A stretch of DNA of 20,000 nt from an uncultured virus (IMG/VR IMGVR_UViG_3300009085_000026) (IMGVR_UViG_3300009085_000026), one strand, 5' to 3'. Positions 1 to 17,755 are shown, numbered from the stretch's first letter. Notes: a model not told the origin generated them from the sequence alone. Made by a program: numbers and translations.

Positions 1-1006
1 CAACTGAGCCAGAGGTATCAACTGTCACAACTACCTTCTTGGACATTTTCTTTATACCAGGAAGAGGCAAGCTCCTTCTGTTCCTCTTAGACCAAGTGTT
101 CTCATAAAGGCTACCAGGCTCATTCACATGCCTTGACATGAGAGTAGAAAGTTTCTTCTGCCAAGGAATCGAGACTGTCTTGATGAGCTCCTTGATTACA
201 GACTGCATGTTGCCAGAGATGTTTCCCCAAGACCGAGTCTTTGCATTATCGATAATTTCCTGTACAACTATTTTCTCAATCTCTGACAAAGGCTTCTGCT
301 TGCTGTGGTCATCGGTGGTCCTTAGAACCTTCTTGCCCTTGTTCTTTCCACACATTGGGCAATTAGGATCATGAGGCTTCTTCTTGCCATCATTGCCACC
401 ACCATTTCCACCATCTTCCTTCCCATCGCTCTCTTTCTCTCCTTCTCCTCCACCGCCCTCACCATCTTCTTTCTTCTCTTCGTCGGCCTTCCCACCGCCT
501 CCACAAACTGGACATTCGCCATCTCCCTTGCCGCCCTGGCTTCCAGTAGAAACTATATAGATCTTAGTAGAATTCTTTTCCAGAAAGTCATACACGATTT
601 CAGAAATGTGTTCTCCTTTGAAGCCCATTGTTTCAATGTCCTTTATCTTTACCCCATCTTTTGGGAGAACAAGCTTCCTATCGCTTATCATAGTGTCTTC
701 TACTATTTCGTTAATGCAAGCATCCTGAGCTACATTGAATATGTTTGTATCCCTATTGCCCAGTCTATCGTGGAACTTGTTGAGAAGATGCATTATCTCA
801 TGGACACAAAGTCCTTCAACCTCGAGAGGATTTAGCTTGCTGATGAACTCCTTGTTGTAGAAGAACAAGATCTTGTGATTGACAGGAGCAACTCCCGCAG
901 TTGGAGTGTTCTCGTCTTCCTTGTAGAGGAAGCGGAGAAGGAACTCTGCGAAGAATGGGCTGTCGACTTGCCACCTTACGCAGATGCTTGAGATCTGCTC
1001 GGGCAT
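1..1006 (-). CDS. DUF2201-type HExxH metallopeptidase fused to vWA domain (3' end runs off the window)
   Basis: Missing from the ORF track; translated by hand from ATG 1006 (possible GTG start at 1018): MPEQISSICVRWQVDSPFFAEFLLRF...TPTAGV...YNKEFI...VHEIMHLL...FNVAQDACINE, then a Gly/Lys/Glu-rich linker, then VVVTVDTSGSV (MIDAS DxSxS) at the window edge. Lies directly downstream of a MoxR-type ATPase. Confidence 0.9.
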   Translation of the reverse strand, partial: MPEQISSICVRWQVDSPFFAEFLLRFLYKEDENTPTAGVAPVNHKILFFYNKEFISKLNPLEVEGLCVHEIMHLLNKFHDRLGNRDTNIFNVAQDACINEIVEDTMISDRKLVLPKDGVKIKDIETMGFKGEHISEIVYDFLEKNSTKIYIVSTGSQGGKGDGECPVCGGGGKADEEKKEDGEGGGGEGEKESDGKEDGGNGGGNDGKKKPHDPNCPMCGKNKGKKVLRTTDDHSKQKPLSEIEKIVVQEIIDNAKTRSWGNISGNMQSVIKELIKTVSIPWQKKLSTLMSRHVNEPGSLYENTWSKRNRRSLPLPGIKKMSKKVVVTVDTSGSV

Positions 1007-1014
1007 TTTATTGG

Positions 1015-2157
1015 TCACTTGCTCTCCCTTGACTTGTAGATGATCTCAGCGATCTTGTCACTCATCTCCGGGAATGCATCGAGATAAGGATCAAGGAACT
1101 CCTTCTCTTTCTTTTCGATTTTCACATTGACTCCCGAAAGAGCCTTGAAGATGGCGACCATGTGGTCCTTGTCGAGCTCTTCCGTTGCAAACTGGTGGAA
1201 ATTCTTCAGGACATCATTCGTGATGAACTCCTGCTTCTGCCTGTCCTGAATATAAGCTACCAGCTCATTTGACAAAGAGTACTTCCTGTCCCTCCCCATC
1301 TTCTTCACATCCTTCTTGAACTTGTCGTAGTTGAAGAGGATATCTTCAGGGCGAACCTTTGAGCGAAGCTTGAGGAATTCAATAAACTGGTGGACGACCG
1401 GGCCCAGCAAAGCAAAGCCAACCATCTTGGTGAGCTGGGTAATCTCCATCTCTGGATTCTGCTTGATGAGCTGAGAGAACTTATCCCAAGAACGAGGAGT
1501 GCAGAACACCATCTCGTTCTCCTTGATGTCGGTGTAAAGAGCAGATGGCTTGGTTGCCAGGAAGCCGAGAACATCGGGATGGACTTGACCATCCTTCTCG
1601 GCCCACTCTCTCCAGCAATCGTAAAGGCCAGCGTCATCTACCATGAAGTGGACGAACCTGTTGTTTAGGGCAGAGTCGGAAATCTCTGTGACCTCGGTCT
1701 TGTCCTCCTCGCCGAGATTGCCTGCGCAAACGATAAACCAGTTATCCAGCAGCCTGTGCATCCCAACTCCATGGTCGAGAACCAGCTGGAAACTCGGCTG
1801 GAGAACATCGAATCGAGCTCGGTTGAACTCGTCGAGGAAGAGGATGCCACCATCCCCGAACTTCCGGTTCTTCTTATCGCCAGGAACGTAGAGGTCTTTG
1901 AAGGCCTCGAAGGGGATTGTCTCAGGAGGGAGCCATCGGCAACAGCCAAGCTTTGCGTCAGAAAAAGGAATGCCCCTAATGTCCGAAGACTCCAGCTGAG
2001 AAAGGCGGAGGTCAATGAAAGCGATATTCCTCTTCTCAGCGATCTTGGCAACAATGGCAGACTTGCCGATGCCTGGCTTCCCGTGGATGTATGGAGTTGC
2101 AACCTGAGGAGCCTTCAGAAGAATATCTAATGACTGGGCAATTTCCTTAATCGTCAT
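1015..2157 (-). CDS. MoxR-like AAA+ ATPase
   Basis: Walker A GKPGIGKS, Walker B LFLDEFNR, Arg finger ALNNRF, sensor-2 TPRSW; GGAGG RBS at 2163-2167. Confidence 0.92.
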   Translation of the reverse strand: MTIKEIAQSLDILLKAPQVATPYIHGKPGIGKSAIVAKIAEKRNIAFIDLRLSQLESSDIRGIPFSDAKLGCCRWLPPETIPFEAFKDLYVPGDKKNRKFGDGGILFLDEFNRARFDVLQPSFQLVLDHGVGMHRLLDNWFIVCAGNLGEEDKTEVTEISDSALNNRFVHFMVDDAGLYDCWREWAEKDGQVHPDVLGFLATKPSALYTDIKENEMVFCTPRSWDKFSQLIKQNPEMEITQLTKMVGFALLGPVVHQFIEFLKLRSKVRPEDILFNYDKFKKDVKKMGRDRKYSLSNELVAYIQDRQKQEFITNDVLKNFHQFATEELDKDHMVAIFKALSGVNVKIEKKEKEFLDPYLDAFPEMSDKIAEIIYKSRESK

Positions 2158-4265: not shown

Positions 4266-5657
4266 CTATATTCTATAAGTCTCGTAATTTATTATATTCT
4301 CTTTTGATTTTGGATAGCAACTTTCTGAAGAGCCATCTATTATCAAATAGAGAATGTTCTTATGATTATCTTTGAATAACAGGCCTAAATCTTTATCATT
4401 TACTCCACCAAAATATCCATCTGTTGCTATAATTAGGAACGGAGCTATCACTGCTGATGCTTCGCTACCTTCACCTTTTACAGGTATAACTATGTCGTCT
4501 TTGCTCATTCCTGATGATGCTGGTTTTTTAATTATGTTTAATAAAGCAGCAGATGGTTTCTCTGGGTCATAGTGGGTGTGCTCTTTGAGATATTTGAATA
4601 GAGACCCCGCTAAGTCTGTTCCACCGCGACCACCTATACCCTTCTTACCTTCTTTATATACTTTCCATCCACCAGCTTTATATTCTTCGGCATTGTGAAC
4701 AGCAGTATCCCACGTCATAAAATAAACTCTGCCCTCGAGCTTTACTGTTCCAGCGCTAAATCCTCTCTTGAAAGCAGAAGCTATTTTATCCATCTCTCCA
4801 AAAACTTTACCTATTGTCGACTCCCCTATAGATCCCGAAGTGTCTAAAGCAACTATCAAAACTATTTCAGATACGGGAGCTTTTACGTAAGGGCCTTTAT
4901 ATAGAATTTTACTTCCAGGAGTGTGCGATTTTGGATCTCTCAAATAAGTAAGGTAAGATTTACTCTTTTGTATCCCTTCTCCTTCTTTGTACCTTTCCGC
5001 TTTCTTTTGAGACATCCTATTTATCGTTGAAGTAGTTCTTGATTTGAACTCTGTTATTCTTCTCTTTAATTCATTTGCCCAGTCTATCTTTGGCTTGTGA
5101 AGGTCTCTCAACTTATCCATATAGCCACCTTCACCTTCTCCTTTACCTTCCACGTTTCTATCTTTTCTTGCTTGCTCAGCTTTTTCTAAAATTTTCTCTG
5201 CCATATCTTTTATTTCGGCTGCATCAGAAGTTTCAAGAATAGCGTGAGCATCTCTCGTTGGCCTCTTCTCCCCCTTGCCGTCCCCCTTTCCTTCTTTTGC
5301 CATGTTCTCTTTTGAAAGTTTTACTTCTTTCTTTTCCCCTGGGCCTGGAGCGTCTTGACCAGCAGACGGAGCTCCACCACCTTTTTGGGGTTTTCCTCCT
5401 TTCTGTGGAGGTCCACCTTTTCCTTGTTGTGGCTGACCACCTTGTCCTTGCTGCTTCTGGTCTTTTGCCTCTTCAACATTTATAACCTCTACACTCTTTG
5501 GTGCTTCTCCTGTTGGCTGTGGTAATCCTGACCCTTGTCCAGGTGCTCCCGGCTTACCAAACATAACTGGAGTAAGTTCGCTTTTCTTAAATGTTTCATT
5601 TCCCTCTAGAAGAATGCCCTCATCTAGAGATTTTAATAAATCTATTACATGGCTCAT
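4266..5657 (-). CDS. vWA domain protein (DUF2201 C-terminal type) with long G/K/Q/P-rich N-terminal linker
   Basis: MIDAS IVALDTSGS, GRGGTDL and IIATDGY; PKIDWANEL motif before the vWA part; overlaps the upstream gene by 4 nt. Confidence 0.85.
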   Translation of the reverse strand: MSHVIDLLKSLDEGILLEGNETFKKSELTPVMFGKPGAPGQGSGLPQPTGEAPKSVEVINVEEAKDQKQQGQGGQPQQGKGGPPQKGGKPQKGGGAPSAGQDAPGPGEKKEVKLSKENMAKEGKGDGKGEKRPTRDAHAILETSDAAEIKDMAEKILEKAEQARKDRNVEGKGEGEGGYMDKLRDLHKPKIDWANELKRRITEFKSRTTSTINRMSQKKAERYKEGEGIQKSKSYLTYLRDPKSHTPGSKILYKGPYVKAPVSEIVLIVALDTSGSIGESTIGKVFGEMDKIASAFKRGFSAGTVKLEGRVYFMTWDTAVHNAEEYKAGGWKVYKEGKKGIGGRGGTDLAGSLFKYLKEHTHYDPEKPSAALLNIIKKPASSGMSKDDIVIPVKGEGSEASAVIAPFLIIATDGYFGGVNDKDLGLLFKDNHKNILYLIIDGSSESCYPKSKENIINYETYRI

Positions 5658-6433
5658 GAGGAACCTCTAGCTTTCTTAATTTCCTCTTCTATGTCTACTT
5701 CTTCTGTTTCTACAGTTCCATCTTTGTTTACTTTTGTAATCTTTCTATACTCATCTTTGTGAGGACCTTCGTTTACTTTTACCACTTGTCCTTCTTTATA
5801 GTAATCCATTTCTTGAGGAGCTCCCCCAGATTGTCCCTGACCAGGTTGTTCTTTCTTATTGGCTTCTAGCCAAGCATACATGTTTTCAGAGTAATAGGCC
5901 TTCTTATCTTTTTTATAATCTGTGTGAAATTTATCTGGAATTTTCATGTCGCCTTCGTCAGGTACTGGTTTCCATCCGCCTATAGCACTTGTATTATCTA
6001 TATCGTGATTTATAATCATATCTTGAGCTATATTCCAGAGAGCGGGATCTCCTCCCTTCGCTATAGCTCTATCATGGTGGAATCTTAAAATATGAGATGC
6101 TTCATGAGCTATAAAGTAAGCTAACTTCCCTGGGACCTTAGCTTCTTGCTCAACATACTCTTCATCATATAAAAACTCTATAACGCCTTTTGAATTTACT
6201 CTTACTCCACCAGTCTTAAACCAATATGGAGGTATAGCTTTTCCAATCTTACAATTCCACCACTCGCAGTTATCTAAAAACTCATAGAGCTCAAACTCAT
6301 CGGAGTTCAAGAAGTGATTCTTTATGGAGGCCATAGCTGGAGGAATTTTACTTTTCTCTGCTTGAAGCAAAGATCTTAGGGCATCGATGCCTTTCTCTTC
6401 ATCTTCATTTAATATATCTAGAATGTTTTTCAT
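5654..6433 (-). CDS. Stand-alone DUF2201-N type HExxH metallopeptidase with C-terminal KOW-like motif
   Basis: IAHEASHILRFH..R and LWNIAQDMIINH parallel the peptidase motifs of gene 1-1006; C-terminal EGQVVKVNEGPHKD resembles KOW. Confidence 0.82.
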   Translation of the reverse strand: MKNILDILNEDEEKGIDALRSLLQAEKSKIPPAMASIKNHFLNSDEFELYEFLDNCEWWNCKIGKAIPPYWFKTGGVRVNSKGVIEFLYDEEYVEQEAKVPGKLAYFIAHEASHILRFHHDRAIAKGGDPALWNIAQDMIINHDIDNTSAIGGWKPVPDEGDMKIPDKFHTDYKKDKKAYYSENMYAWLEANKKEQPGQGQSGGAPQEMDYYKEGQVVKVNEGPHKDEYRKITKVNKDGTVETEEVDIEEEIKKARGSS

Positions 6434-8826
6434 TATTCTGTCTTTAGTCCTTTTAGATAACTAAGTATTCTGGCTTCTTCGGCTTTCTCGCCTTCCGGCT
6501 CTTCAGCTTCACCAGCTTCCTTCTTTCCGCCCTTGCTTATAGCCTCTAGCTCTTTCTCTACTTGACTCTTTGTCTTCAAGGACTTCTTCAAGTTTTCTAC
6601 ATATACTTCCCATTTACCAGCCATTTTTCTGTGAAGGTCTCTAAAGAGTTCGCTTCTACCTTCTTTAGCTGCAGTCTCTATTAAGTGTGTGAATCCTATG
6701 AAGTCATCTGTATCAAATTCTAAATCTTTGTACATTGCTTTGAATGTCTGGTATAGTTGTTCTACTATACCTTGCTTAGACAATAAAGGAATACTCTTCT
6801 CTTCCATAAACTTCTCTATATCCTTTTCTGTCTTGTACTTCGACAAGGCATTGAATAGTCTAGCTAGAAGTTGTGGCTTAGTTCCAAATCCAATATTTGC
6901 TAAGTCTTTTACTTGTTCCCTTATCATCTTGTAGTTGAATAATATATCTTCTTCCGTTATTCCCTCTTTGCCTCTCTTGACAAAGGATCTTATCATTTTA
7001 CTTATATAGTCTTTTCCTTCGTTTCCAAATTCTGGAGATTGCATTGCCAATAGTCTAATCTGGTTTGCAGCACTATTGAACCAAGCCGCAAACTTATATT
7101 GCTCTAGATCTTCTGGTGGCTTTGGTGGTGCCTTCTTATCTACCTTTACTACCTCTGGCCACTTATCCTCTATTTGTTTCTTCATCTTCTCAGCTGTCTT
7201 AGTAAACTTGTCTTGAGATTCTTTGCTCAATGATAGCCACTGTTCAACTCCGCGCTCAATCATATCGTCAGCTACCATGGTGAAAGATCTTGGAGAAGTA
7301 GTTCTTTCTCCTCCACCAAATCCCGTACCACCAGCAACCTTTACTGGATTCAAGAATGGTTTCTCTGGATCTAGCCCCGTCTTTGTTTTCATATCTTGCT
7401 GGACGAAGTTTAGAACTATTGGTGGGACTCTTGTTAGAGTCATGAATTTCTTTCCGCTCTTTGTTTCTGCTGCATAAGGTAAAGCAGCAAAGTTCTTAAA
7501 CCAAGATGGAGCATGATATTTTCCTATAAGAACTCTGTGAACTCTTTCTAGAGTTGCTATATCCATATCTTTTACTGCGTTGATGTTTTCGGATATTCCC
7601 GCCTGAGTTCCAGTGTTCATTGCCAATACTACTACTGTCTTTTCTGGTAGCTTATATCTGTCTAACTCTTTTTCTCCTGACTTCTTTCTAACTAACTCTG
7701 ATGCTCCACCAAGTTCACCAGTAAGTACTAAATTCATAACTGCTGACATCTTTTCCATGTCAGCTCTGTTGAACTCATCAAAGAATAATATCCATGGCTC
7801 TTTACTTCCAGCAGGTGGCAAGAATTGAGATGGTGCCATCTTTACAATCTTCATAGCTCTTCTTAGTCTGTCTTCTTTAACGTCGTCATCAGCAGATTCA
7901 ACGTCGTCTAAGAATGGGAATCCAGATAGTAATTCTACTGGAACCTTTTGTAATTCTAGAGGGAAGAAGTGGTATCCATTTGCTTTAGCGGCTTTCCCAA
8001 TGATTTCGGTTTTTCCCCAACCCGTTGGAGCGTATATAGCAAGAGTCTTTATTTTGCTTTCTTTTAGAACGTTTCCTTCTTTTACTCTTACAAGTAAATC
8101 TCCCAGCTCTCTAGCAAAATCATCATAGCTTATTTCTACAGGAGCTATTTTTATTGGCTTATCTTCGCTTGACTTTAGGGCTTCAGCACCCTCATCTGCG
8201 AAAGAACCAAATACTAATTTATCAACTTCTGCCATAATAGAGATATCGTCAGATTCTGCTTCTACTAATGTATCTTCCCATTCATAATCTACGCCTTCTA
8301 CTACCGCAGCAGACTTTGGAGCTACAACAAACATAACTCCATCGCCGTCTTTTGTCAGACCAGTACCAAATCCTAAGTTTAGTTTATCAGAAAGATGAAT
8401 GTCCATCTTTCCAGCAGGAGTATCATAAGTTAAAGATAAAGTCTTTTTTCCTGAAGCTATTTTCTTATATTCTACTTTCTCGGCTTCTGGAGTAAGAATT
8501 TTTCCTGCCTTATTGAATAGAACAAACTTACCAGCAACAGTCTTTCCTATCGCAACCCCCAGCTTAAATCCTCTTAGAGCAACCTCTTTGATTTTTCCCT
8601 TCAAAGATTGCCAACCACTCTTGACAGCAGCAACTGCTTTCTTCGCAACTCCAGCTACTTTCTCTCCAGCTGCCTTAAGATCAAGTTCGTCTAGCTTTTC
8701 ATCCTTTAAAATTTCTTTTGCTATCTTTTCAAAAAGGATAGACTCTTTTGCTTTCGGCCGACTCTTTACAACAGCAGAATCGGCTATGTCTTCTTTTATG
8801 CTTTTAAACAAATTATTGAAACTCAT
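6433..8826 (-). CDS. Large MoxR-like AAA+ ATPase with ~250-aa N-terminal extension
   Basis: Walker A APTGWGKT, Walker B ILFFDEFNR, ATLERVHR, sensor-2 SPRSF; AAGGAG RBS. Confidence 0.88.
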   Translation of the reverse strand: MSFNNLFKSIKEDIADSAVVKSRPKAKESILFEKIAKEILKDEKLDELDLKAAGEKVAGVAKKAVAAVKSGWQSLKGKIKEVALRGFKLGVAIGKTVAGKFVLFNKAGKILTPEAEKVEYKKIASGKKTLSLTYDTPAGKMDIHLSDKLNLGFGTGLTKDGDGVMFVVAPKSAAVVEGVDYEWEDTLVEAESDDISIMAEVDKLVFGSFADEGAEALKSSEDKPIKIAPVEISYDDFARELGDLLVRVKEGNVLKESKIKTLAIYAPTGWGKTEIIGKAAKANGYHFFPLELQKVPVELLSGFPFLDDVESADDDVKEDRLRRAMKIVKMAPSQFLPPAGSKEPWILFFDEFNRADMEKMSAVMNLVLTGELGGASELVRKKSGEKELDRYKLPEKTVVVLAMNTGTQAGISENINAVKDMDIATLERVHRVLIGKYHAPSWFKNFAALPYAAETKSGKKFMTLTRVPPIVLNFVQQDMKTKTGLDPEKPFLNPVKVAGGTGFGGGERTTSPRSFTMVADDMIERGVEQWLSLSKESQDKFTKTAEKMKKQIEDKWPEVVKVDKKAPPKPPEDLEQYKFAAWFNSAANQIRLLAMQSPEFGNEGKDYISKMIRSFVKRGKEGITEEDILFNYKMIREQVKDLANIGFGTKPQLLARLFNALSKYKTEKDIEKFMEEKSIPLLSKQGIVEQLYQTFKAMYKDLEFDTDDFIGFTHLIETAAKEGRSELFRDLHRKMAGKWEVYVENLKKSLKTKSQVEKELEAISKGGKKEAGEAEEPEGEKAEEARILSYLKGLKTE

Positions 8827-8902: not shown

Positions 8903-9241
8903 TTATGGATTTGCTTTTTGATCTTTTATGCTATTTACATATTTAGGTGGCTTAGACTCTATGAATTGGCCGTACTTATCTACTCCATGATCCCAATCTA
9001 CTATGAGTTGGTTTTCATTTAGGTCTGTGTCAATAATCACCATTTGTATATTAGACGGCTCGCCAGTTATCTGAATGTACTCTCCATACCCTGGATTTTT
9101 AATCTGGTTGATTACAGGAGGATAACGGTGAGGGCCGCCATCGATAGCAGATTGACCACAAGCACAAAACCTCATATCGTGCCTTGCTCGGCTGAATACA
9201 ATAGAGCCACAAGCCTTGCAGCGTATTCCTTGAAACTTCAT
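8903..9241 (-). CDS. Small Cys-rich zinc-finger-like phage protein
   Basis: IRCKACGSIVFSRARHDMRFCACGQSAIDGG: the CxxC..HD...CxCG..DGG pattern is common in large-phage hypothetical proteins. Confidence 0.75.
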   Translation of the reverse strand: MKFQGIRCKACGSIVFSRARHDMRFCACGQSAIDGGPHRYPPVINQIKNPGYGEYIQITGEPSNIQMVIIDTDLNENQLIVDWDHGVDKYGQFIESKPPKYVNSIKDQKANP

Positions 9242-9276
9242 ATATAGAATATATGTCTTTATCGAAACTCCGCGTA

Positions 9277-9337
9277 CCCGATAATTTTCCGCTCTAGAGC
9301 CCGGGAATTTCGGGCTCAGGGCCCGGGAATATTCCGC
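9277..9337. repeat. Three imperfect 16-nt GC-rich direct repeats; the middle copy forms a hairpin
   Basis: cccgataattttccgc (9277), cccgggaatttcgggc (9300), cccgggaatattccgc (9322); inverted repeat gagcccg/cgggctc at 9297-9317. Confidence 0.65.
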
Positions 9338-9386
9338 CTATAATTAACATAACAAGGAACATATACAATACTATTAAGAGACAGGA

Positions 9387-11603: not shown

Positions 11604-13223
11604 CTAGATCTCTCCCTTAGCGATAAGGTTAATCAACTTAGGAGTCTCGCCAGTGAAGCCAGCGATATCGTAAGACTGATTGTCCTTCGGGTCGGCAAGA
11701 GTGATGTTGTCCCCATAAGGTATGAGGGTAACATAGATTGCCTTTGCCTTCGGATTCAGCTTGCTCTTGTAAGCAGTGAATCCCTGAGCAGGATGCCTAT
11801 AACCAGCCCAGCTTTCACTATCGGTAAAGAAGACGAATACGTCAGTCTTTACATTGTGCTTGATAGCGTACTTATAGGCCTGGTCAGCATCAGTTCCACC
11901 AAAGTCTCCATCGTAGAAATTCATCGCCTGCTTGTAGGTCATCTTCCTGCTGAAGTTGCTCAGAGGAGTGAAGCTGGTGTTGAATCCACCAACGAAGTAG
12001 TTCTTCTCTGACCTTACTGAAGCGAGAGACATTACTCCCTCAACTTCAATAGGAGTCATGTTGAGCTTTCCTACTCCACCACCAGTCATTGATCCTGAGA
12101 TATCAAGAGCAAAGAAGAAGTCCTTGCCAGTTGGCTCAAGAGCATCGAAGCACTTCTCGATTCCATCTTCCATAGCATCGACTACCCTTGGAAGAGGAGT
12201 CCATCGCAGCTTGCTCTTTCCGCCCTCTCCACCAGCCATGTAGGCCTTCATTGCTGAAGCGAATACAACTGGGTGGATATAGGCCTTGGATAGGTTCTCT
12301 CGGTTAAACCTTTCCTCGAGCATCTCGATGTTAGCCTTCTTCTTGAAGACCTCCTTGTCAGTCAGGTTTCCAAGGTTACGAATAGTGGCACCTACTGGCA
12401 TCTGCTTGAACAGAGCCTCCCAGATCTTGTTGGTCATGGTGAGGTTGCCAGGCATCATCTCCCAGGTCATCCTGAACTTCTTGATGGCGTCGATAACGTC
12501 ATCCTCGGTTGCACCCTTCTTGAGCTTCTCATAGGCGTTAATCCTCTCGAGCTCAATTGGGAATGCCTCGAGCAGAGGGTTCTTCTTAGTTCCACCAACT
12601 GCCCAGTTATAGACAGCCTTCTTGATGTTGTCAGTCGGAACTGGCTTTACCATTCGAAGAATGTCCTTGGCGCTCCAATCATATCGGCTCTGGTACTTCA
12701 GGAACTGGTACTCAAGCTCCTTTGCATCCTTACCGTCAAGCCAAGCATTGACAGTCTTATGGATTAGAGAGCCGAATCCTCGGTTGTCCCTGCAGTAGTT
12801 GAAGAACTCATAAAGCTGGCTACCATTCCTGATAACCATCGGGAAGATTTCCCTGAACGCATTCTTGGCAGGTCCCTCTCCAGTTGAAAGAAGAGTTAGT
12901 GCGAAGATTGGAGTGTGAACAGAGATACCCTTTTTAGAAGCGTCAAGGATTTCCTGCCCAACCCTAATTGGGTCTTCCTTCATGAGCTTATCAAGGACCT
13001 TTGAGTTGTCTTTGGTCATCTGCTCCTTGTTCTGATAGAAAGCATTTGACATGCTTCCTACAAGTAGCCATCGCCTGAGAGCCTGCCAAGGATCTACCTT
13101 GAAGCCCTTTGCTCCAGCAAGATTATCGGTCATCTCGAGCTCTCGCCCGGGAATAACCATCCTCTGTGGAGTAGCGATCTTCCTCTTCCTAGTACCTGCG
13201 TGTGCGTACGGTGACTTTGCCAT
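11604..13223 (-). CDS. rsr: Ro60/TROVE domain RNA-binding protein (Rsr-like) with C-terminal vWA domain
   Basis: N.AG..GF, LRRWLLVGS..FY, LKYQSRYDWSAKDILR, MTWEM, MP.GATIRNLG, ALDISGSM, GGTD, FVFFTDSESW and IAGF are characteristic Ro60 motifs; 539 aa; AAGGAGG RBS. Confidence 0.95.
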   Translation of the reverse strand: MAKSPYAHAGTRKRKIATPQRMVIPGRELEMTDNLAGAKGFKVDPWQALRRWLLVGSMSNAFYQNKEQMTKDNSKVLDKLMKEDPIRVGQEILDASKKGISVHTPIFALTLLSTGEGPAKNAFREIFPMVIRNGSQLYEFFNYCRDNRGFGSLIHKTVNAWLDGKDAKELEYQFLKYQSRYDWSAKDILRMVKPVPTDNIKKAVYNWAVGGTKKNPLLEAFPIELERINAYEKLKKGATEDDVIDAIKKFRMTWEMMPGNLTMTNKIWEALFKQMPVGATIRNLGNLTDKEVFKKKANIEMLEERFNRENLSKAYIHPVVFASAMKAYMAGGEGGKSKLRWTPLPRVVDAMEDGIEKCFDALEPTGKDFFFALDISGSMTGGGVGKLNMTPIEVEGVMSLASVRSEKNYFVGGFNTSFTPLSNFSRKMTYKQAMNFYDGDFGGTDADQAYKYAIKHNVKTDVFVFFTDSESWAGYRHPAQGFTAYKSKLNPKAKAIYVTLIPYGDNITLADPKDNQSYDIAGFTGETPKLINLIAKGEI

Positions 13224-13450: not shown

Positions 13451-14242
13451 CTATGGAGCTGGTGGTTTAACTATTGTCCAAACTCCACCAGACAATATAG
13501 CGTACATAGTATTTGGAGGTATGGGACTCATTACTACAGAAGAAGCATATAGATCTCTATAAGTTTCCCAGTTTTCATAAACTATGTCTTCATTTGGTAA
13601 TCCCGGTAAGTCTAAATTTCCATAACTCGTTATGGTGACCTTAAGGTTTCCCATATCTAAAGAGCAAGTATAATCGGCTCTAATATAATGGTGAGACCAC
13701 TCAGTGCCTACTACATTCTTTTCAAAAGTATAAACTGTACCAGATCCAGTAAAGTAAGTACCAGAAATTTTAGCTCCAGACATATCGGAATGTACAAGAG
13801 TATAATTATCTAAGCCAGATCCACCAAAGTTAGTAATTACTACTAAGGAAGTTTGAGTATAAGAAAATATTTTAGTTGCTTGATTTAATATAATCTGATA
13901 ATATACTTCGCTATTTGTTCCGGTAAAAACAATATCTCCACCTTTTCTAGAAATAGTAGTAACTACGTTTTCACCAAGAAATGGTGAGCTAAATGAATCT
14001 CCTACGCTATAACTACCAGAAGTCCATCCATTAACCATTGGAATTACAGAAGCAGCTTGGGCTTCTTCTTTTTTATTCGGAAGCGTCCCATCAACATGAG
14101 CAGCTCCTGTGGTTCTAGAGCCAGTAGTTCCCCAGCCCGTCCAAATAACTGGAGCTAAATTTATATTAGATGGATTACATCCTTCACAGCTGAACATAGA
14201 TAAAGCAAAAAGCATTAAAAGAAAAACTTTTAATATCTTCAT
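13451..14242 (-). CDS. Predicted lipoprotein of unknown function
   Basis: MKILKVFLLMLFALSMFS-C signal peptide II / lipobox; Ser/Thr/Gly-rich mature part that looks beta-rich; AGGAG RBS. Confidence 0.75.
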   Translation of the reverse strand: MKILKVFLLMLFALSMFSCEGCNPSNINLAPVIWTGWGTTGSRTTGAAHVDGTLPNKKEEAQAASVIPMVNGWTSGSYSVGDSFSSPFLGENVVTTISRKGGDIVFTGTNSEVYYQIILNQATKIFSYTQTSLVVITNFGGSGLDNYTLVHSDMSGAKISGTYFTGSGTVYTFEKNVVGTEWSHHYIRADYTCSLDMGNLKVTITSYGNLDLPGLPNEDIVYENWETYRDLYASSVVMSPIPPNTMYAILSGGVWTIVKPPAP

Positions 14243-14251
14243 TTTATTCTC

Positions 14252-15013
14252 CTATATGGAAGGAAAGACGTTTTTTATCTTTCTACCTGTTTTGTTTAAC
14301 TTAGCTTGATCTAAATAAATCTTTGAAATTGGTCTACCAACTTCTTTTTCAAAAGATGAATATGGAATGCAGCCAAAAGCACAATGCTTACAAACTTTAT
14401 TCATCTTATCTATAGGGAAATCTTTTGGACTATTTGGTAAATAATCTAATATCAAATCTTCCTCACCAAATAATCTTATATACCCATCAGCAGAGCAACA
14501 TAAACTATATCCTTGATAAGTAAGAACTAATCTATTTTTATTTACATAGTTACAGCTATGAAACGTTGCTCCACTAACCCCTATGTCTTCGGGATGTAAG
14601 AGAACAGCCAAGTGAACATTCTCTTTTTCTTTCACAGTCAAATAATTAGTTACATACTCTTCAATCTCTTTTGGTGCTTCTTTTATACGATTGGAATTTA
14701 TTATAAGCCTTCCAGCCATCTTACTATCAATCAATCTGGCTTTTATTAATTTTGTTATCTCTACTATATTGGGATGTAAAAGTGGCTCGCCCCCAGAGAT
14801 TTGAATGAATTCGAATACTCTTCTATTTTCTTTTTTATACAACTCTTCAACTTGTTTTACGAAATTTTCTATTTGACCCATTGTCATATCTGAATCATCA
14901 TAGTTTAGACCAGTCTCATTTTCCATATTGCAAAAACGAAGACAGTTTTTACACTTCCAATTGCAACGTAGAGTAATAGCAAGATCTATAGTATAATATA
15001 TTGCCGAATTCAT
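14252..15013 (-). CDS. Radical SAM protein
   Basis: CNWKCKNC (CxxxCxxC), SGGEPLLHP, extra C-terminal cysteines (CC...CKHC..GC). Confidence 0.9.
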   Translation of the reverse strand: MNSAIYYTIDLAITLRCNWKCKNCLRFCNMENETGLNYDDSDMTMGQIENFVKQVEELYKKENRRVFEFIQISGGEPLLHPNIVEITKLIKARLIDSKMAGRLIINSNRIKEAPKEIEEYVTNYLTVKEKENVHLAVLLHPEDIGVSGATFHSCNYVNKNRLVLTYQGYSLCCSADGYIRLFGEEDLILDYLPNSPKDFPIDKMNKVCKHCAFGCIPYSSFEKEVGRPISKIYLDQAKLNKTGRKIKNVFPSI

Positions 15014-15792
15014 ATAGATGGAAATATCTTGTTAATTTTTCTTCCAGCTTTGTTCAATTCGGCCTGCTCTTGATATATTTTAGATACCGGGCAACCAACT
15101 TCACTTTCTAATTTTACGTTCTTGCATCCAAATACACAGTGTTGACAAATCTTATCAATCCTATCTAAAAGAAAATTAGGATCGCTAGGCAAAGTATCTA
15201 CTATTAAATCTTCCTCACAGAATAATCTAATGTATCCATCAGAATCACAGCATCTTGTATATCCATGCTTATTCAAAACTACTTTTGTTTTGTTTGGCGG
15301 ATAATTACAGCAAGTTTTAAAAGTAGGTCTTGCTTCTCCAACATCGTCAGGATGAATAAGAACAGCTCTATGAATTTTTGACTTATCTTCAATAGTAGTA
15401 TAGTTAAGAATATATTGCTTTAAAGCTTGTGGAGCTTCAATTAATAAATTGGAATTTATTTTTAAGTTTCGAACCATTCCAGTATTTATTAATTCTTTTT
15501 GTAAAAGTTGAGCTATCCCAATAATATCTGGATGTAAAAGCGGTTCTCCACCACTCAAAATGATCGCTTCAAATACTACTTGTTTCTTTTCTAGCCAAAT
15601 ATTTTTAACTTGTTCTATGAAGTTTCTTATTTGCCCAATAGTCATATTTAGATCATCGTAATCTAATCCAGTTATTCTGCTCATGTTACAGAATCTACAA
15701 CAATTTTTACAAGCCCAATTACACTTGAGAGTAAGCTCTATATCTATTATAGTAAAAATTGGTGCACCTGCAGGCCAATATATTAGGTTCAT
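15010..15792 (-). CDS. Radical SAM protein (paralog of the downstream gene)
   Basis: CNWACKNC, SGGEPLLHP, CC...CQHC..GC; ATG 15792 after AAGGA; both paralogs end in FPSI. Confidence 0.9.
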   Translation of the reverse strand: MNLIYWPAGAPIFTIIDIELTLKCNWACKNCCRFCNMSRITGLDYDDLNMTIGQIRNFIEQVKNIWLEKKQVVFEAIILSGGEPLLHPDIIGIAQLLQKELINTGMVRNLKINSNLLIEAPQALKQYILNYTTIEDKSKIHRAVLIHPDDVGEARPTFKTCCNYPPNKTKVVLNKHGYTRCCDSDGYIRLFCEEDLIVDTLPSDPNFLLDRIDKICQHCVFGCKNVKLESEVGCPVSKIYQEQAELNKAGRKINKIFPSI

Positions 15793-15811
15793 CAAGTCCT
15801 TTCAAAAAATA

Positions 15812-15929
15812 AAGAGCAAGGTGCTGAAAAAGCTTTGTTACTGTATTACTACAGTTTGCAGGGTTTGAACCTGCTAGTTTCATTTTTTAAAATAAAATTT
15901 TATCCGGTAAGCTCTTCCAATCAGCTCTT
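15812..15929 (-). ncRNA. Y-RNA-like element 2 with tRNA-like T arm
   Basis: AAGAGC[U]GA/UUGCUCUU stem, GGAAGAGCUU/AAGCUUUUUC stem, UUACCG, T arm GCAGG-UUCAAAC-CCUGC followed by the ACUGUA-GUAA-UACAGU hairpin. Confidence 0.78.
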
Positions 15930-15936
15930 AATTTTT

Positions 15937-16037
15937 TAAAGCAGAAGCAAGGATTTGGGAAACGGATACGTGTTTAATGAGCCGCCGCTCGTTGCATCCA
16001 TATTGCGGTAACCGCTTCCACTTCAGTCTCTGCTTTA
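15937..16037 (-). ncRNA. Y-RNA-like element 3
   Basis: UAAAGCAGAGAC[U]GA/UUGCUUCUGCUUUA stem (one mismatch), GGAAGCGG/CCGUUUCC stem, UUACCG. Confidence 0.7.
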
Positions 16038-16073
16038 GAAAACCCTCTCTGGAGAACATAGTCTCCAGAGAGG
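16037..16073 (-). terminator. Perfect 12-bp hairpin, probable terminator or processing site
   Basis: CCUCUCUGGAGA-CUAUGU-UCUCCAGAGAGG followed by GUUUUCU. Confidence 0.6.
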
Positions 16074-16083
16074 CAATGAAAAA

Positions 16084-16399
16084 TTGAAACTTAAAGAGCC
16101 AGTAAAAGTCAAAGCGTCATCAACTAAGAGTAGAGAAGAAGCTTACTAAATTAACTCTTAATTCGGGATCGCTCATTCCCGTTGCTCTTTACAGAGCATA
16201 CCATATAATATTTAGTTCGTCTGCCGTTTGTTCTTTCGCCTAATCTATAATTATTAACATCAAAAACATCCATATCTAATTTAAATATATTTTCTAAAAT
16301 GACCATCCAGCGTTTCTCCCTTTCGGTGAGTGCCAACCAGATGGAAATAGCGGCTACTTACGAACAGCAGATATAGACTAACCAACTCTCAAGTTTCAA
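16084..16399 (-). ncRNA. Unidentified ~316-nt multi-branched structured RNA
   Basis: The ends pair over ~19 bp (UUGAAACUUGAGAGUUGGU / ACUGGCUCUUUAAGUUUCAA); nested stems and GNRA-capped hairpins inside; G-U pairs fit the minus strand. Confidence 0.65.
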
Positions 16400-16407
16400 A
16401 GATCGAA

Positions 16408-16465
16408 GGGTAGATGGACTACCCGGGTGAATCCTACTACAGCGTGTGTCACTGTTTCAGATTCA
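16408..16465 (-). ncRNA. Structured element with loop-E/sarcin-ricin-like internal loop plus a second hairpin
   Basis: UGAAUCU-GAA-ACAGUG-ACACA-CGCUGU-AGUA-GGAUUCA, then GGGUAG-UCCAU-CUACCC. Confidence 0.5.
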
Positions 16466-16478
16466 AAAGAAAAGTATG

Positions 16479-16609
16479 CGAGCAAATAGGTAAGGATGAT
16501 GTTACTTGGCCGGCATTCTATAGTCGGTGCCATCGACCCTAAAGCATCGATTAACCTTTCGGTTAACGATTTAATCATTGATTTTCGGTAATCACCCTAA
16601 GTCAGCTCG
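16479..16609 (-). ncRNA. Y-RNA-like element 4
   Basis: CGAGC[U]GA/UUGCUCG stem, AGGGUGAU/AUCAUCCU stem, UUACCG, inner hairpin UUAACC-GAAA-GGUUAA. Confidence 0.72.
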
Positions 16610-16900
16610 ACTTCAATACGCCAAGCGAATGCTTAGGCCAGCATTCTATTTCGACTCAGTAACCCTGAGCAGGTTTAGTTAGTAGTAATCAGTTGTACTT
16701 CTTACCACCTCCGTTATTAAATATACTTATGCGAAAACAAAAAGAAAATTTTGAATTTAGATTAGAGACTAACCCTTCCGGGCTTTATCTTTTATTATCT
16801 TTCGAGATATATGCAAAATTTGAAGTTTTTAGAGGGACTTTATATCTAATTGTTATATGGCTTAAAGTAAAGATAACTAAAGCATAATTATAGGAGCAAA

Positions 16901-17755
16901 ATGATTAAATTTATTAAAGACGTGATGAATTACAAAGTGAAGCTTTCTATAGTAATAACTATAGTTGCTAGTCTCATGGCTATATTTAGCATATCAGTGC
17001 TTGTTGTCAATAACTTTTTAGTAGATGCTAAATACCAAGCCGACAAGCAATCCTGGAAAGCTCAGATAGCCGAGCTAGAGGCTAAGAATAAAGACTATAG
17101 AGATTCAGCGGCTGAGATTCTGGCAATAAAGGATAGGTTTAGAGCATCAATAAAAGAGATAGTAGAAATGCTCTATAATAAGGATACTTCTTTGGGCATA
17201 GGTGGTTCATCTATACCAGTTGAAGATACCGATGAGGCTGTTCTTCTACAAATAAGAAATACAGTTCAAACAATGCAGGATGACCAAAACCTATTAGCAG
17301 AGGTCAAGCATTACTTAGTAGCAAGAAAAGAATTCATAGACAACTTCCCGTTTGATTGGCCAATTAGCAAAACTGGAGTTCCTAAAATAACATCTGGCTT
17401 TGGATTTAGGGACGATTTAAAGGGTAAACCAACTTTACACATGCACGCTGGGATAGATATTGGCGGAAAGAAAGGAGATGCAGTTTATGCAACTGCAGCT
17501 GGGGTAGTCGTATCTGTAAATTATAATCACGAACTATATGGAAAATTAGTAATTCTAAAGCATAAATATGACTTTGAAACTTATTATGCTCATCTTGATA
17601 AGATTTCCGTAAAGATTGGTCAATCTATAGAAAGGGGTCAAAAGGTTGGCGAAATGGGAGATACTGGTGAATCTCAAGGTTACCATTTACATTATGAAAT
17701 AAGAAGAAATTCTGTGGCTATTGATCCTATGATGTTTCTTAATATAAACTATTAG
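16901..17755 (+). CDS. Membrane-anchored M23 peptidase (TM, coiled coil, LytM domain)
   Basis: N-terminal hydrophobic helix, coiled coil, then WP...ITSGFGFR, HAGIDIG, TYYAHL and GDTGESQGYHLHYEI; AGGAG RBS. Confidence 0.92.
   Translation: MIKFIKDVMNYKVKLSIVITIVASLMAIFSISVLVVNNFLVDAKYQADKQSWKAQIAELEAKNKDYRDSAAEILAIKDRFRASIKEIVEMLYNKDTSLGIGGSSIPVEDTDEAVLLQIRNTVQTMQDDQNLLAEVKHYLVARKEFIDNFPFDWPISKTGVPKITSGFGFRDDLKGKPTLHMHAGIDIGGKKGDAVYATAAGVVVSVNYNHELYGKLVILKHKYDFETYYAHLDKISVKIGQSIERGQKVGEMGDTGESQGYHLHYEIRRNSVAIDPMMFLNINY

What the first reader, a model, noticed from the sequence alone, without database searches (positions are those of the whole stretch)
16084..16399. Unrecognised ~316-nt multi-branched RNA inside the Y-like RNA cluster
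Seen on the minus strand: a ~19-bp closing helix (16381-16399 with 16084-16103) and a nested helix UCUGCUGUU/AACGGCAGA (16363-16371 with 16220-16228). Inside that lies the hairpin CCAUCUGG...CC-GAAA-GG...CUGGAUGG (16303-16344). Three back-to-back hairpins follow: UGCUCU-GUAA-AGAGCA (16183-16198), CGGGA/UCCCG (16164-16181) and AAUUAAGAGU/ACUCUUAGUU (16122-16163). A perfect 12-bp terminator-like hairpin lies just downstream. Many pairs are G-U only on the minus strand, so this is RNA-level rather than DNA palindromic structure. I could not find the hallmarks of RNase P RNA, tmRNA, SRP RNA or group I/II introns. Inference: a new class of large phage ncRNA, perhaps a partner or substrate of Ro60.
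Basis: partly seen in the sequence, partly recalled or inferred. Interest (0 to 1): 0.82.

Follow-up and report, generated by a model that had tools for sequence, protein, structure and literature searches.

The report
New large RNA beside phage Ro60
A roughly 320-base folded RNA gene of no known family lies among the small Y-type RNA genes upstream of the Ro60 gene of a large uncultured phage, and two related phages keep its fold while changing its sequence, so it is probably a real new non-coding RNA, possibly a new partner of Ro60.

Summary
The 316-nt stretch folds better than all 100 shuffles (z -3.65).

Homologues exist in two other Ro60-encoding phage lineages: L087, and L082 (L084 identical there, L083 cut off). 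Window versus L087 is only 56% identical, yet 47 of 50 homologous pair columns stay paired, 12 of them through changes on both sides. Fifteen G-U cells fix the strand.

The 61-aa ORF is not conserved and has no protein relative. No Rfam family matches any copy at E up to 5-10. All three copies are followed by a hairpin and a U-rich tract. All lie in an array of Y-like RNAs upstream of Ro60.

The RNA is not a Y RNA. It is about three times too long and lacks this clade's Y signature. It does carry two invariant GNCGAA boxes, the motif tied to Ro60 contact in bacterial Y RNAs.

Best reading: a new structured ncRNA family that works with Ro60. Binding is inferred, not shown. Only three distinct sequences were reachable, so the covariation statistics are thin.

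The parts
16376..16399 (-). P1 5' strand (closing helix; the inner 4 nt AGUC are invariant as RGUC in all three phages)
   Evidence: MFE fold. Pair table: 23 columns, 5 with compensatory change. Recovered by RNAalifold on the anchored alignment. The outer part and a four-pair inner segment were also recovered on a plain MAFFT alignment, whose 5' region is misaligned.
16084..16110 (-). P1 3' strand (begins with the invariant GACU)
16369..16375 (-). Invariant block UAUAUCU: junction J1/2 (UAUA) plus the first three bases of P2
   Evidence: Identical in the window, L087 and L082
16363..16371 (-). P2 5' strand
   Evidence: 9 columns, 4 with compensatory change among three sequences. Recovered by RNAalifold on the MAFFT alignment A3 and on the anchored alignment.
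16220..16228 (-). P2 3' strand
16303..16344 (-). P3 hairpin with GAAA tip. A hairpin of different sequence and length stands at this place in L087 and L082.
   Evidence: Single-sequence folds. No column-level homology, so no covariation count.
16242..16302 (-). A+U-rich linker inside the P2 domain, mostly unpaired in the models
   Evidence: Positions 16230-16266 are near-identical in the relative seen in run X6.
16234..16241 (-). Invariant box AGGCGAAA (first GNCGAA box)
   Evidence: Motif definition taken from PMC4201824 section 6.
16216..16222 (-). Invariant box AGACGAA (second GNCGAA box). It straddles the 3' end of P2 and the multi-helix junction.
16183..16198 (-). P4 hairpin, GUAA loop
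   Evidence: (2 of 6 columns compensatory versus L087). Absent from L082.
16164..16181 (-). P5 hairpin, 8-nt loop
   Evidence: The G-C to A-U exchange is recovered by every alignment that holds both sequences. Absent from L082.
16122..16163 (-). P6 hairpin
   Evidence: A hairpin is present in L087 at the same place. The register of the column homology is ambiguous. Absent from L082.
16037..16073 (-). Intrinsic-terminator-like hairpin (12 bp, 6-nt loop) plus GUUUUCU
   Evidence: L087 and L082 have unrelated hairpins followed by U-rich tracts at the same place.
16151..16336 (-). 61-aa ORF (TTG start) overlapping the RNA; judged not to be a gene
   Evidence: No protein relative, and the ORF itself is not in the protein collection. 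No equivalent ORF in L087 or L082. No Pfam hit.
11604..13223 (-). Ro60 (TROVE plus vWA_Ro60) gene, the proposed partner, 2.9 kb downstream on the same strand
   Evidence: Pfam. 69-72% identical orthologues lie directly downstream of the RNA arrays of L087 and L082.

Best explanation
16084-16399(-) is the gene of a previously undescribed structured non-coding RNA of about 320 nt. In the window and L087 copies, five helices (P1, P2, P4, P5, P6) meet at one junction. P2 encloses a second domain that holds hairpin P3. A terminator-like hairpin follows the RNA.

The gene belongs to the array of small Y-like RNA genes that these large phages carry upstream of their Ro60 gene. I propose that the RNA acts in trans as a non-canonical Ro60 partner. 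Ro60 would dock on the two invariant GNCGAA boxes at the base of P2. The peripheral arms (P3 to P6) would hold or present something else, most plausibly a host RNA-decay enzyme of the kind that Y RNAs tether, so that host RNA surveillance is redirected or blunted during infection.

Shown here: the fold, its conservation through compensatory change, its strand, its non-coding nature, the hairpin and U-rich tract after it, its conserved place next to Y-like RNAs and Ro60, and the presence of the boxes.

Inferred: transcription, the exact ends, Ro60 binding, and any effector.
For: **Fold.** z is -3.65 for the window copy and -2.61 for L087.

**Homologues.** nhmmer found matches in 4 of the 23 loci L081-L103 (L087, L082, L084, L083), which are two lineages.

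**Covariation** on a hand-made, sequence-anchored alignment:
- 113 of 117 cells are canonical, against 36-52 of 117 when the 3' partner is slid by 1-3 nt.
- 16 of 50 columns carry a compensatory change.
- Window versus L087: 29 same, 6 one-sided, 12 two-sided, 3 broken.
- Of the 21 changed columns, 18 stay paired. None of 10000 shuffles reached that.

**Independent recovery.** RNAalifold on the anchored window+L087 alignment recovers P1, P2, P4, P5 and P6 without constraints, at -50.6 kcal/mol. Plain MAFFT alignments recover P2 and P5, and outer P1, a four-pair inner P1 segment and P5.

**Strand.** 15 G-U cells.

**Not coding.**

**3' end.** Stable hairpins with U-rich tails follow all three copies: -22.9, -24.8 and -13.5 kcal/mol.

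**Synteny.**
- The RNA follows the Y-like module AGCUG..GGGUGAUUACCG in all three phages.
- The array lies directly upstream of Ro60 in L087 and L082.
- In the window it lies 2.9 kb upstream of Ro60, with three genes between.

**Ro60 motif.** AGGCGAAA and AGACGAA are two of only five blocks of 5 nt or more that are invariant in all three sequences. Both fit GNCGAA. Chen et al. 2014 relate that motif to the GGUCCGA contacted by Ro60 (PMC4201824, section 6, passages read). A 2025 paper used a conserved CGAA motif to find the Ro60-binding Y-like RNAs of phage phiLo (PMC12135203, section 17, passages read).
Against: **Thin sampling.** Only three distinct sequences were available, so no R-scape-grade statistics are possible.

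**Alignment bias.** The pair table rests on my own alignment, made with the helices in mind.
- MAFFT alone misaligns P4, P6 and, in the pairwise case, the 5' region.
- The register of P6 is ambiguous. Without P6 the count is 12 compensatory columns of 43.

**Weak L082 copy.** It lacks P4-P6 and the outer half of P1, and folds no better than z -1.75. Those parts are either dispensable or that copy is decaying.

**No expression data.** None could be obtained.

**The Ro60 link is circumstantial.**
- GNCGAA occurs 0.45-1.7 times per kb in these sequences, so two in 316 nt is only mild enrichment.
- In Y RNAs the motif sits near the 5' end of the terminal stem. Here it sits on the 3' side of an internal helix.
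- Most of the clade's own Y-like modules lack CGAA.

**Narrow distribution.** Phages whose Ro60 is 45-58% identical (L085, L086, L088, L089, L090) have no detectable homologue, so Ro60 does not need this RNA in general.
Confidence: 0.45

Rival explanations
1. A real, new structured ncRNA whose function has nothing to do with Ro60. It could be a ribozyme, a decoy or sponge for a host defence or RNA-decay protein, or a self-assembling RNA. On this view it sits here only because these phages gather their RNA genes (tRNAs, Y-like RNAs) in one region.
For: - All the structural evidence applies equally.
- The RNA lacks every specific Y-RNA signature of its own clade.
- The array is modular and shuffled between phages, and a free-standing HNH gene sits inside it in L082.
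- L087 and L082 carry several tRNA genes in the same neighbourhood.
- GNCGAA is not rare.
Against: - The RNA was found only in the three lineages with the most similar Ro60, always in the array next to Ro60, and always after the same Y-like module.
- Its two longest invariant unpaired blocks both match the published Ro60-contact motif (PMC4201824).
Confidence: 0.3
2. A cis-acting leader, riboswitch-like or protein-dependent, whose terminator controls read-through into the downstream Y-like RNAs and the Ro60 operon.
For: - A large structured domain is followed at once by a terminator-like hairpin in all three phages.
- Everything downstream as far as Ro60 is on the same strand.
- The sigma-70-type scan found no more promoter-like sites than shuffles in any of the three arrays.
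Against: - No conserved antiterminator. The best pairing of the upstream 35-60 nt with the terminator's 5' arm is no better than shuffles; the fraction of shuffles at least as good is 0.87, 0.16 and 0.37 in the three phages.
- P1 and the terminator coexist in the MFE.
- What follows the terminator is another ncRNA gene, or an HNH gene in L082, not an ORF with a ribosome-binding site.
- No known riboswitch family matches.
Confidence: 0.1
3. A remnant or unusual form of a self-splicing intron or other mobile RNA element, as hinted by the homing-endonuclease gene beside the L082 copy.
For: - An HNH endonuclease ORF (Pfam HNH, E 1e-9) starts 26 nt after the U-tract that follows the L082 copy.
- That copy has lost P4-P6 and the outer half of P1.
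Against: - No group I, group II or other ribozyme model matches on either strand at E up to 10.
- The element does not interrupt any gene.
- The window and L087 copies have no endonuclease gene.
- The HNH gene lies after the terminator, between two RNA genes, as free-standing phage endonuclease genes do. That last comparison is from my own knowledge.
Confidence: 0.04
4. A small protein gene: the 61-aa ORF 16151-16336(-), or 51 aa counted from the ATG at 16306, which has GGGAG 9 nt upstream. The hairpins would then be incidental.
For: The ORF exists. An internal ATG is preceded by a Shine-Dalgarno-like GGGAG (read).
Against: - No homologue among 5.8 billion clusters, and the ORF itself was never called as a gene.
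- No Pfam hit.
- In L087 no plus-strand ORF of 20 aa or more lies between 9097 and 9235. In L082 none lies between 8465 and 8668.
- The spacer between the two invariant boxes differs by 1 nt between the window and L087, which shifts the frame.
- By my estimate (not a tool result), one or two ORFs of this length are expected by chance in a 1.1-kb gap of this composition.
Confidence: 0.02
5. No function: chance secondary structure in a non-coding spacer, or DNA-level inverted repeats.
For: - A+U-rich spacers carry many short inverted repeats.
- The plus strand also folds somewhat better than shuffles, z -2.47.
- The L082 copy has z of only -1.75.
Against: - Pairing is kept through 12 two-sided and 6 one-sided changes at 56% sequence identity.
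- 15 G-U cells would be mismatches in DNA or on the other strand.
- Invariant unpaired blocks stand amid diverged sequence.
Confidence: 0.03

Closest known systems
Bacterial and phage Y RNAs (YrlA/YrlB, Yrn1, phiLo Yrl1/Yrl2), the ncRNA partners of Ro60
   Same: - Encoded on the same strand within 4 kb upstream of a Ro60 gene, next to bona fide Y-like modules.
- The 5' and 3' ends pair into a long terminal stem.
- It carries the CGAA/GNCGAA motif that the literature links to Ro60 contact (PMC4201824 section 6; PMC12135203 section 17; passages read).
   Different: - About 316 nt, against 80-130 nt for Y RNAs (PMC4201824, introduction).
- A junction of five helices plus an inner domain, instead of stem, internal loop, stem.
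- Two motif copies, on the 3' side of an internal helix rather than near the 5' end.
- No tRNA-like T or D arm.
- It lacks the AGCUG...UUAYCG...UUGCU signature that 13 neighbouring modules in the three arrays share.
Large 'ornate' bacterial and phage RNAs of unknown function (GOLLD, ROOL, OLE, raiA)
   Same: - A large, multi-branched, highly structured ncRNA with GNRA-type loops.
- Encoded in a phage genome near tRNA-type genes.
- No known protein-coding or regulatory role.

The GOLLD, ROOL and OLE comparison rests on the abstract of PMC12286853 in the search listing, and otherwise on my own knowledge.
   Different: - No match to any Rfam model on either strand. That Rfam release 15 holds models of these four families is from my own knowledge.
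- Smaller, at about 320 nt. The sizes of about 580-800 nt for ROOL and GOLLD are recalled.
- Known so far only from three phage lineages, and tied to Ro60.
Transcription-attenuating leader RNAs (riboswitches, T-boxes)
   Same: A large folded domain closed by a P1 helix and followed within about 10 nt by an intrinsic-terminator-like hairpin.
   Different: - No conserved antiterminator.
- No ORF downstream of the terminator.
- No family match.

Membership tests
Y RNA / YrlA-type Ro60-binding RNA | Encoded near (within 4 kb of) a Ro60/Rsr gene | tested here: met
   The RNA ends 2.9 kb upstream of Ro60 in the window. It ends about 0.6 kb upstream in L087 and about 1.4 kb upstream in L082. The criterion is from the methods passage of PMC4201824.
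Y RNA / YrlA-type Ro60-binding RNA | Length 80-130 nt, with a terminal stem enclosing one large internal loop | tested here: not met
   About 316 nt from P1 to P1, with a junction of five helices and an inner P2/P3 domain. The size range is from the introduction of PMC4201824.
Y RNA / YrlA-type Ro60-binding RNA | GNCGAA(N0-1)G or CGAA motif near the 5' end, in or beside the terminal stem | tested here: inconclusive
   Two invariant GNCGAA boxes are present, at 16240 and 16221. The full GNCGAAN0-1G form is present once in the window, twice in L082 and not in L087. They lie about 160-185 nt from the 5' end, on the 3' side of P2.
Y RNA / YrlA-type Ro60-binding RNA | tRNA-like T and D arms (YrlA subfamily) | tested here: not met
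   ARAGORN and the Rfam tRNA model find nothing inside 16084-16399. The weak T-arm-like match at 15850-15901 belongs to a neighbouring module.
Y RNA / YrlA-type Ro60-binding RNA | This clade's own Y-like signature (5' AGCUG...UUAYCG, 3' UUGCU) | tested here: not met
   A regex scan of the three arrays found 2, 5 and 6 modules with the 5' signature. None lies inside the feature.
Y RNA / YrlA-type Ro60-binding RNA | Binds Ro60 | not testable with these tools
   This needs EMSA or co-purification. Complex prediction takes proteins only.
Known large or catalytic RNAs in Rfam 15 (RNase P, tmRNA, SRP, 6S, group I/II introns, GOLLD, ROOL, OLE, raiA, HEARO, riboswitches) | Match to the family covariance model | tested here: not met
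   - No match at gathering score.
- At E up to 10 there are only unrelated eukaryotic or enterobacterial families, far below their thresholds, and they differ between the window and L087.
- The L082 copy was searched at E up to 5 and gave only a 21-bit U6 match against a gathering score of 44.
Attenuator / riboswitch leader | Mutually exclusive terminator and antiterminator, with a regulated ORF downstream | tested here: not met
   A terminator is present. Upstream-to-terminator pairing is no better than shuffles in all three phages. The next gene is an ncRNA or an HNH gene.
Small protein gene | Reading frame conserved in relatives | tested here: not met

The most novel reading that the evidence does not exclude
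This is the first member of a new class of large Ro60-docking RNAs, a 'super-Y' RNA. Its two invariant CGAA boxes, 10-12 nt apart at the base of a multi-helix junction, would each recruit a Ro60 ring, or one ring plus a second factor. The result would be a higher-order RNP that jumbo phages use to take over or disarm host RNA surveillance. That would extend Ro60 biology beyond 100-nt Y RNAs and misfolded substrates.
Probability: 0.2. Interest if true: 0.85.

Novelty: new variant of a known kind. Interest (0 to 1): 0.64.

Why it matters
What Ro60 does in bacteria and phages, and which RNAs it works with, is still largely open. The known partners are Y RNAs of 80-130 nt and misfolded RNAs. A conserved RNA three times that size, with its own terminator, sitting inside a phage Y-RNA array and carrying the Ro60-contact motif twice, would give a concrete new ligand to test with a phage Ro60 that can be made recombinantly.

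If it does not bind Ro60, it is still a new family of large structured phage RNA, a category in which few members are known and almost none is understood.

The protein search lists dozens of Ro60 relatives at 55-87% identity on contigs I could not fetch. A proper covariation test should therefore be within easy reach of anyone with access to those assemblies.

Tried and rejected
**Searches for relatives that found nothing**
- Phage GenBank collection: no DNA match to the 1.1-kb gap or to the L087 array, and no tblastn match to the neighbouring radical-SAM protein.
- Exact-stretch scans of viral contigs: none.
- Single-protein locus searches in viral contigs found no relative.

**A wasted scan**
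Its pattern was generic, so L001-L080 are unrelated radical-SAM loci with no similarity to the RNA.
- L081 (47% radical-SAM identity) has no such gap. Its 524-aa ORF is a glycosyltransferase, not Ro60.

**Motif scans**
- The 3' core motif in viral contigs gave 20 loci. Four are the already known contigs and 16 are coding look-alikes.
- The 5' motif gave 4 viral loci (3 known, 1 coding) and 3 genome loci, all coding.

**Other negative searches**
- The nhmmer profile found no further homologue in the loci fetched up to then (L001-L130) or in the window.
- BLAST of the whole contigs behind L087, L082, L083, L085 and L090 found no second copy.
- Double GNCGAA boxes in non-coding DNA of other Ro60 loci: none.

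**Sequencing runs**
- No RNA holder is listed.
- Runs X3-X5 hold identical DNA in pieces, so they give no variation.

**Smaller dead ends**
- L085 9380-9700 looked like a possible analogue but is not homologous and has z of only -1.89.
- A possible pseudoknot between the AAGUA(R)C region and the P5 loop was seen by eye: 4 bp in the window, 5 bp in L087, in shifted registers. I dropped it as within chance.
- A Bacteroidota-type -7 promoter reading of the conserved UCUUUGA was dropped. It fits the recalled consensus poorly, and it would remove P1 bases that covary.

Full report
**1. What is in the window**

The window is an A+T-rich phage-like stretch. On the minus strand it encodes:
- a Ro60 protein at 11604-13223 (TROVE plus vWA_Ro60 domains);
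- two radical-SAM paralogues at 14252-15795;
- an endonuclease-V-type glycosylase, a peptide deformylase, and a pair made of an AAA ATPase and a metallopeptidase/vWA-like protein;
- two tRNA genes.

Between the first radical-SAM gene and a divergent M23 peptidase gene (16901-17755, plus strand) lies a 1.1-kb stretch, 15796-16900, holding only ORFs of about 60 aa or less. Its G+C content rises to 0.40-0.48, against about 0.30 in the flanks. The finding lies in the middle of this gap.

**2.

Read on the minus strand, 16084-16399 folds exactly as described:
- a long closing helix P1 (16399-16376 with 16110-16084);
- a nested helix P2 (16371-16363 with 16228-16220);
- a hairpin P3 with a GAAA tip (16344-16303);
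- three adjacent hairpins: P4 (16198-16183), P5 (16181-16164) and P6 (16163-16122).

The MFE is -86.2 kcal/mol against -69.0 +/- 4.7 for shuffles, z -3.65, and 0 of 100 shuffles fold as well. The opposite strand is weaker, z -2.47.

A perfect 12-bp hairpin followed by GUUUUCU lies 10 nt downstream. All 53 pairs of my model of the window copy are canonical. Six are G-U.

**3. Relatives**

Nothing similar exists in the GenBank phage collection.

A protein search with Ro60 gave 742 relatives, about 40 of them at 52-87% identity. An alignment of the best 38 was used to pull 22 Ro60 loci from viral contigs.

blastn and nhmmer with the whole gap as query, and later a profile of the feature alone, found homologues of the feature in four of the 23 loci L081-L103. 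These represent two further lineages:
- L087: Ro60 69% identical, RNA at about 9052-9367.
- L082: Ro60 72%, RNA at about 8390-8625. L084 is identical there. L083 is the same phage cut at a contig end.

Five lineages with Ro60 at 45-58% identity (L085, L086, L088, L089, L090) and the more distant loci have no detectable homologue.

Two motif scans of the viral collection and one of the genome collection returned only those same contigs plus coding look-alikes.

CheckV rates four of the five contigs searched as 24-70% complete at 63-158 kb. By inference these are phages of roughly 200-260 kb.

A further close relative exists in a sediment run (X6), but only fragments could be seen.

**4. The fold is conserved while the sequence is not**

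I cut the three sequences at blocks of conserved sequence, not at helices, and aligned each segment with MAFFT.

*Results on that anchored alignment*
- The window and L087 are 56% identical over 271 aligned columns.
- RNAalifold on that window+L087 alignment, without constraints, returns P1, P2, P4, P5 and P6 at -50.6 kcal/mol.

*Explicit pair table of 50 homologous columns*

| Measure | Result |
|---|---|
| Canonical cells | 113 of 117 |
| Canonical cells with 3' partner slid 1-3 nt | 36-52 of 117 |
| Columns with a compensatory exchange | 16 of 50 |
| By helix | P1 5/23, P2 4/9, P4 2/6, P5 1/5, P6 4/7 |
| Window vs L087 | 29 same, 6 one-sided, 12 two-sided, 3 broken |
| Changed columns still paired | 18 of 21 |
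| Shuffles of the 3' letters reaching that | 0 of 10000 |
| G-U cells | 15 |

The G-U cells show that the constraint acts on an RNA of this strand, not on DNA.

*Caveats*
- There are only three sequences.
- The table was hand-made with the helices in view.
- MAFFT without anchors recovers only parts. It finds P2 and P5 with all three sequences. It finds outer P1, a four-pair inner P1 segment and P5 with two sequences, although the 5' region of that alignment is misaligned. It finds P5 alone in the P4-P6 segment.
- The register of P6 differs between my table and the RNAalifold run. Without P6 the count is 12 compensatory columns of 43.

*Blocks invariant in all three copies*
- CUUUGA, just 5' of P1 and overlapping its first bases;
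- UAUAUCU, the junction between P1 and P2;
- AGGCGAAA and AGACGAA, flanking the 3' strand of P2;
- GACU, the inner end of P1;
- two 4-nt blocks.

**5. The L082 copy is reduced**

It keeps the inner 9 bp of P1 (with one mismatch), P2, a P3 hairpin and all the invariant blocks. It has no P4-P6 and no partner for the outer 5' strand of P1, although that strand is almost identical to the window's. An HNH endonuclease gene lies just after its terminator.

So P1(inner)-P2-P3 plus the boxes is the common core. Whether the L082 copy is a minimal form or a decaying one cannot be told.

**6. It is not a protein gene**

- The 61-aa ORF (16151-16336) has no relative and was never called as a gene in the protein collection.
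- It has no Pfam hit.
- L087 and L082 have no corresponding ORF of 20 aa or more.
- The spacing between the two invariant boxes differs by one base between the window and L087.

**7. It is no known RNA family**

Rfam 15 gives nothing at gathering score. At E up to 10 it gives only scattered matches to unrelated families, far below their thresholds. These differ between the window and L087. L082 was searched at E up to 5 and shows only a 21-bit U6 match. No tRNA- or tmRNA-like element lies inside the feature.

**8. Context: a Y-RNA array next to Ro60**

The rest of the gap, and the corresponding gaps of L087 (1.5 kb) and L082 (2.2 kb), are filled with modules of about 95-125 nt. Each begins with AGCUG...UUAYCG and ends near UUGCU. 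There are 2, 5 and 6 strict matches in the three arrays. The two examples that I folded pair their ends into a stem around an internal loop.

One module per phage carries a T-arm-like hairpin. In the window it is the weak tRNA match at 15850-15901. These have the size and shape of Y RNAs, which are 80-130 nt, and some bacterial Y RNAs mimic tRNA (PMC4201824; abstract, introduction and section 6 passages read).

The feature always follows the same module (AGCUG..GGGUGAUUACCG), and the array lies upstream of Ro60 on the same strand. It is directly upstream in L087 and L082. In the window three genes lie between. The divergent neighbour is an M23 peptidase in both the window and L082.

Stable hairpins of unrelated sequence followed by U-rich tracts come after the feature in all three phages, which points to a discrete 3' end.

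**9. How it most likely works**

The feature fails the tests for membership of the Y RNAs. It is three times too long, is multi-branched, and has neither the clade's Y signature nor tRNA-like arms.

Its two longest invariant unpaired blocks both fit GNCGAA. Chen et al. describe GNCGAAN0-1G near the 5' end of YrlA RNAs as resembling the GGUCCGA that Ro60 contacts, and note that Ro60 mainly reads that one strand (PMC4201824, section 6). A 2025 study used a conserved CGAA motif in a bulge next to the terminal stem to find two Y-like RNAs of Thermus phage phiLo. It showed that they bind the phage Ro60 and form complexes with host PNPase (PMC12135203; abstract and passages of sections 17, 20 and 21 read).

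I therefore commit to the reading that this RNA is a non-canonical Ro60 partner. Ro60 would dock at the base of P2, and the peripheral arms would act as a platform for a second factor.

This is an inference, and I put it at about 0.45. Against it:
- the motif is not rare, at 0.45-1.7 per kb;
- it sits in a different place than in Y RNAs;
- more distant Ro60 phages do without this RNA.

That the feature is a real, conserved, structured non-coding RNA I put at about 0.9.

A riboswitch-like leader is unlikely, because no antiterminator is conserved. An intron or mobile-RNA remnant is unlikely, because no model matches and no gene is interrupted.

**10. Novelty**

Three full-text searches brought up no paper that describes an RNA of this size or shape in a Ro60 locus. 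I saw only listings and abstracts, plus passages of three papers. Subscription journals are outside that library. The supplementary tables of PMC4201824, which list 355 putative YrlA RNAs, were not opened.

I file the feature as a new variant within the known kind 'Ro60-linked non-coding RNA'. If the Ro60 link fails, it is simply a new RNA family of unknown kind.

Noticed in passing
window 15796-16083 and 16400-16720 (-); L087 8640-9980; L082 7900-9990: There are arrays of Y-like RNA modules of about 95-125 nt, with 5' AGCUG...UUAYCG and 3' UUGCU. The strict 5' signature is matched 2, 5 and 6 times in the three phages, plus a variant at window 16034-15940. No Rfam Y-RNA model matches them. This is an unusually large number of Y-like genes for one Ro60 gene.
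   Followed up: partly
window 15858-15874 (-), within the last Y-like module: A T-arm-like hairpin, GCAGG-UUCAAAC-CCUGC, gives a weak tRNA match (15.4 bits). In the relative seen in run X6, the loose end of one contig reads GCUGG...CCAGC, an A-U to U-A exchange that keeps the stem. Positions 15873-15992 are about 98% identical in that relative, while the adjacent coding DNA differs at 7 of 37 positions.
   Followed up: partly
L082 8675-9256 (+): A free-standing HNH endonuclease gene (Pfam HNH, E 1e-9) is inserted in the RNA array, between the reduced copy of the feature and the tRNA-like Y module. It is absent from the window and from L087.
   Followed up: partly
window 16405-16463 (-) and L082 9423-9480 (+): A module of about 58 nt with two small hairpins is 91% identical over 43 nt between the two phages, but sits at different places in the array. 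In the window it is just 5' of the feature. In L082 it follows the tRNA-like Y module. The array is modular and shuffled.
   Followed up: no
window 16143-16229 versus run X6 record 9: In a close relative, the flanks 16117-16142 and 16230-16266 are near-identical. The 87 nt between them (P2 3' strand, second CGAA box, P4, P5, P6 5' arm) are replaced by 86 letters that do not align at 80%. The letters are not shown, so it is unclear whether pairing is kept.
   Followed up: no
window 13451-15795 (-): Two paralogous radical-SAM genes and a 263-aa ORF without a Pfam hit lie between the RNA array and Ro60 in the window only. Relatives of the radical-SAM protein (up to 77% identical) occur on a metagenome contig of the same length (8,473 nt) as the one listed for an 87%-identical Ro60. 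They might modify the array RNAs, but that was not tested.
   Followed up: no
window 2-2157 and 4266-8826 (-): There are AAA ATPase genes next to genes with DUF2201_N metallopeptidase and VWA-like (DUF2201) domains. These resemble the MoxR-vWA-metallopeptidase chaperone pair that Iyer et al. describe for group 2.2 jumbo phages (PMC7824862, section 3.4.5 passage read).
   Followed up: no
L085 9380-9700 (+): A phage with Ro60 at 56% identity has a 976-nt gap upstream of Ro60. It holds one Y-like module and a non-homologous stretch of about 300 nt with an 11-bp end-to-end helix seen by eye. The fold z is only -1.89.
   Followed up: partly
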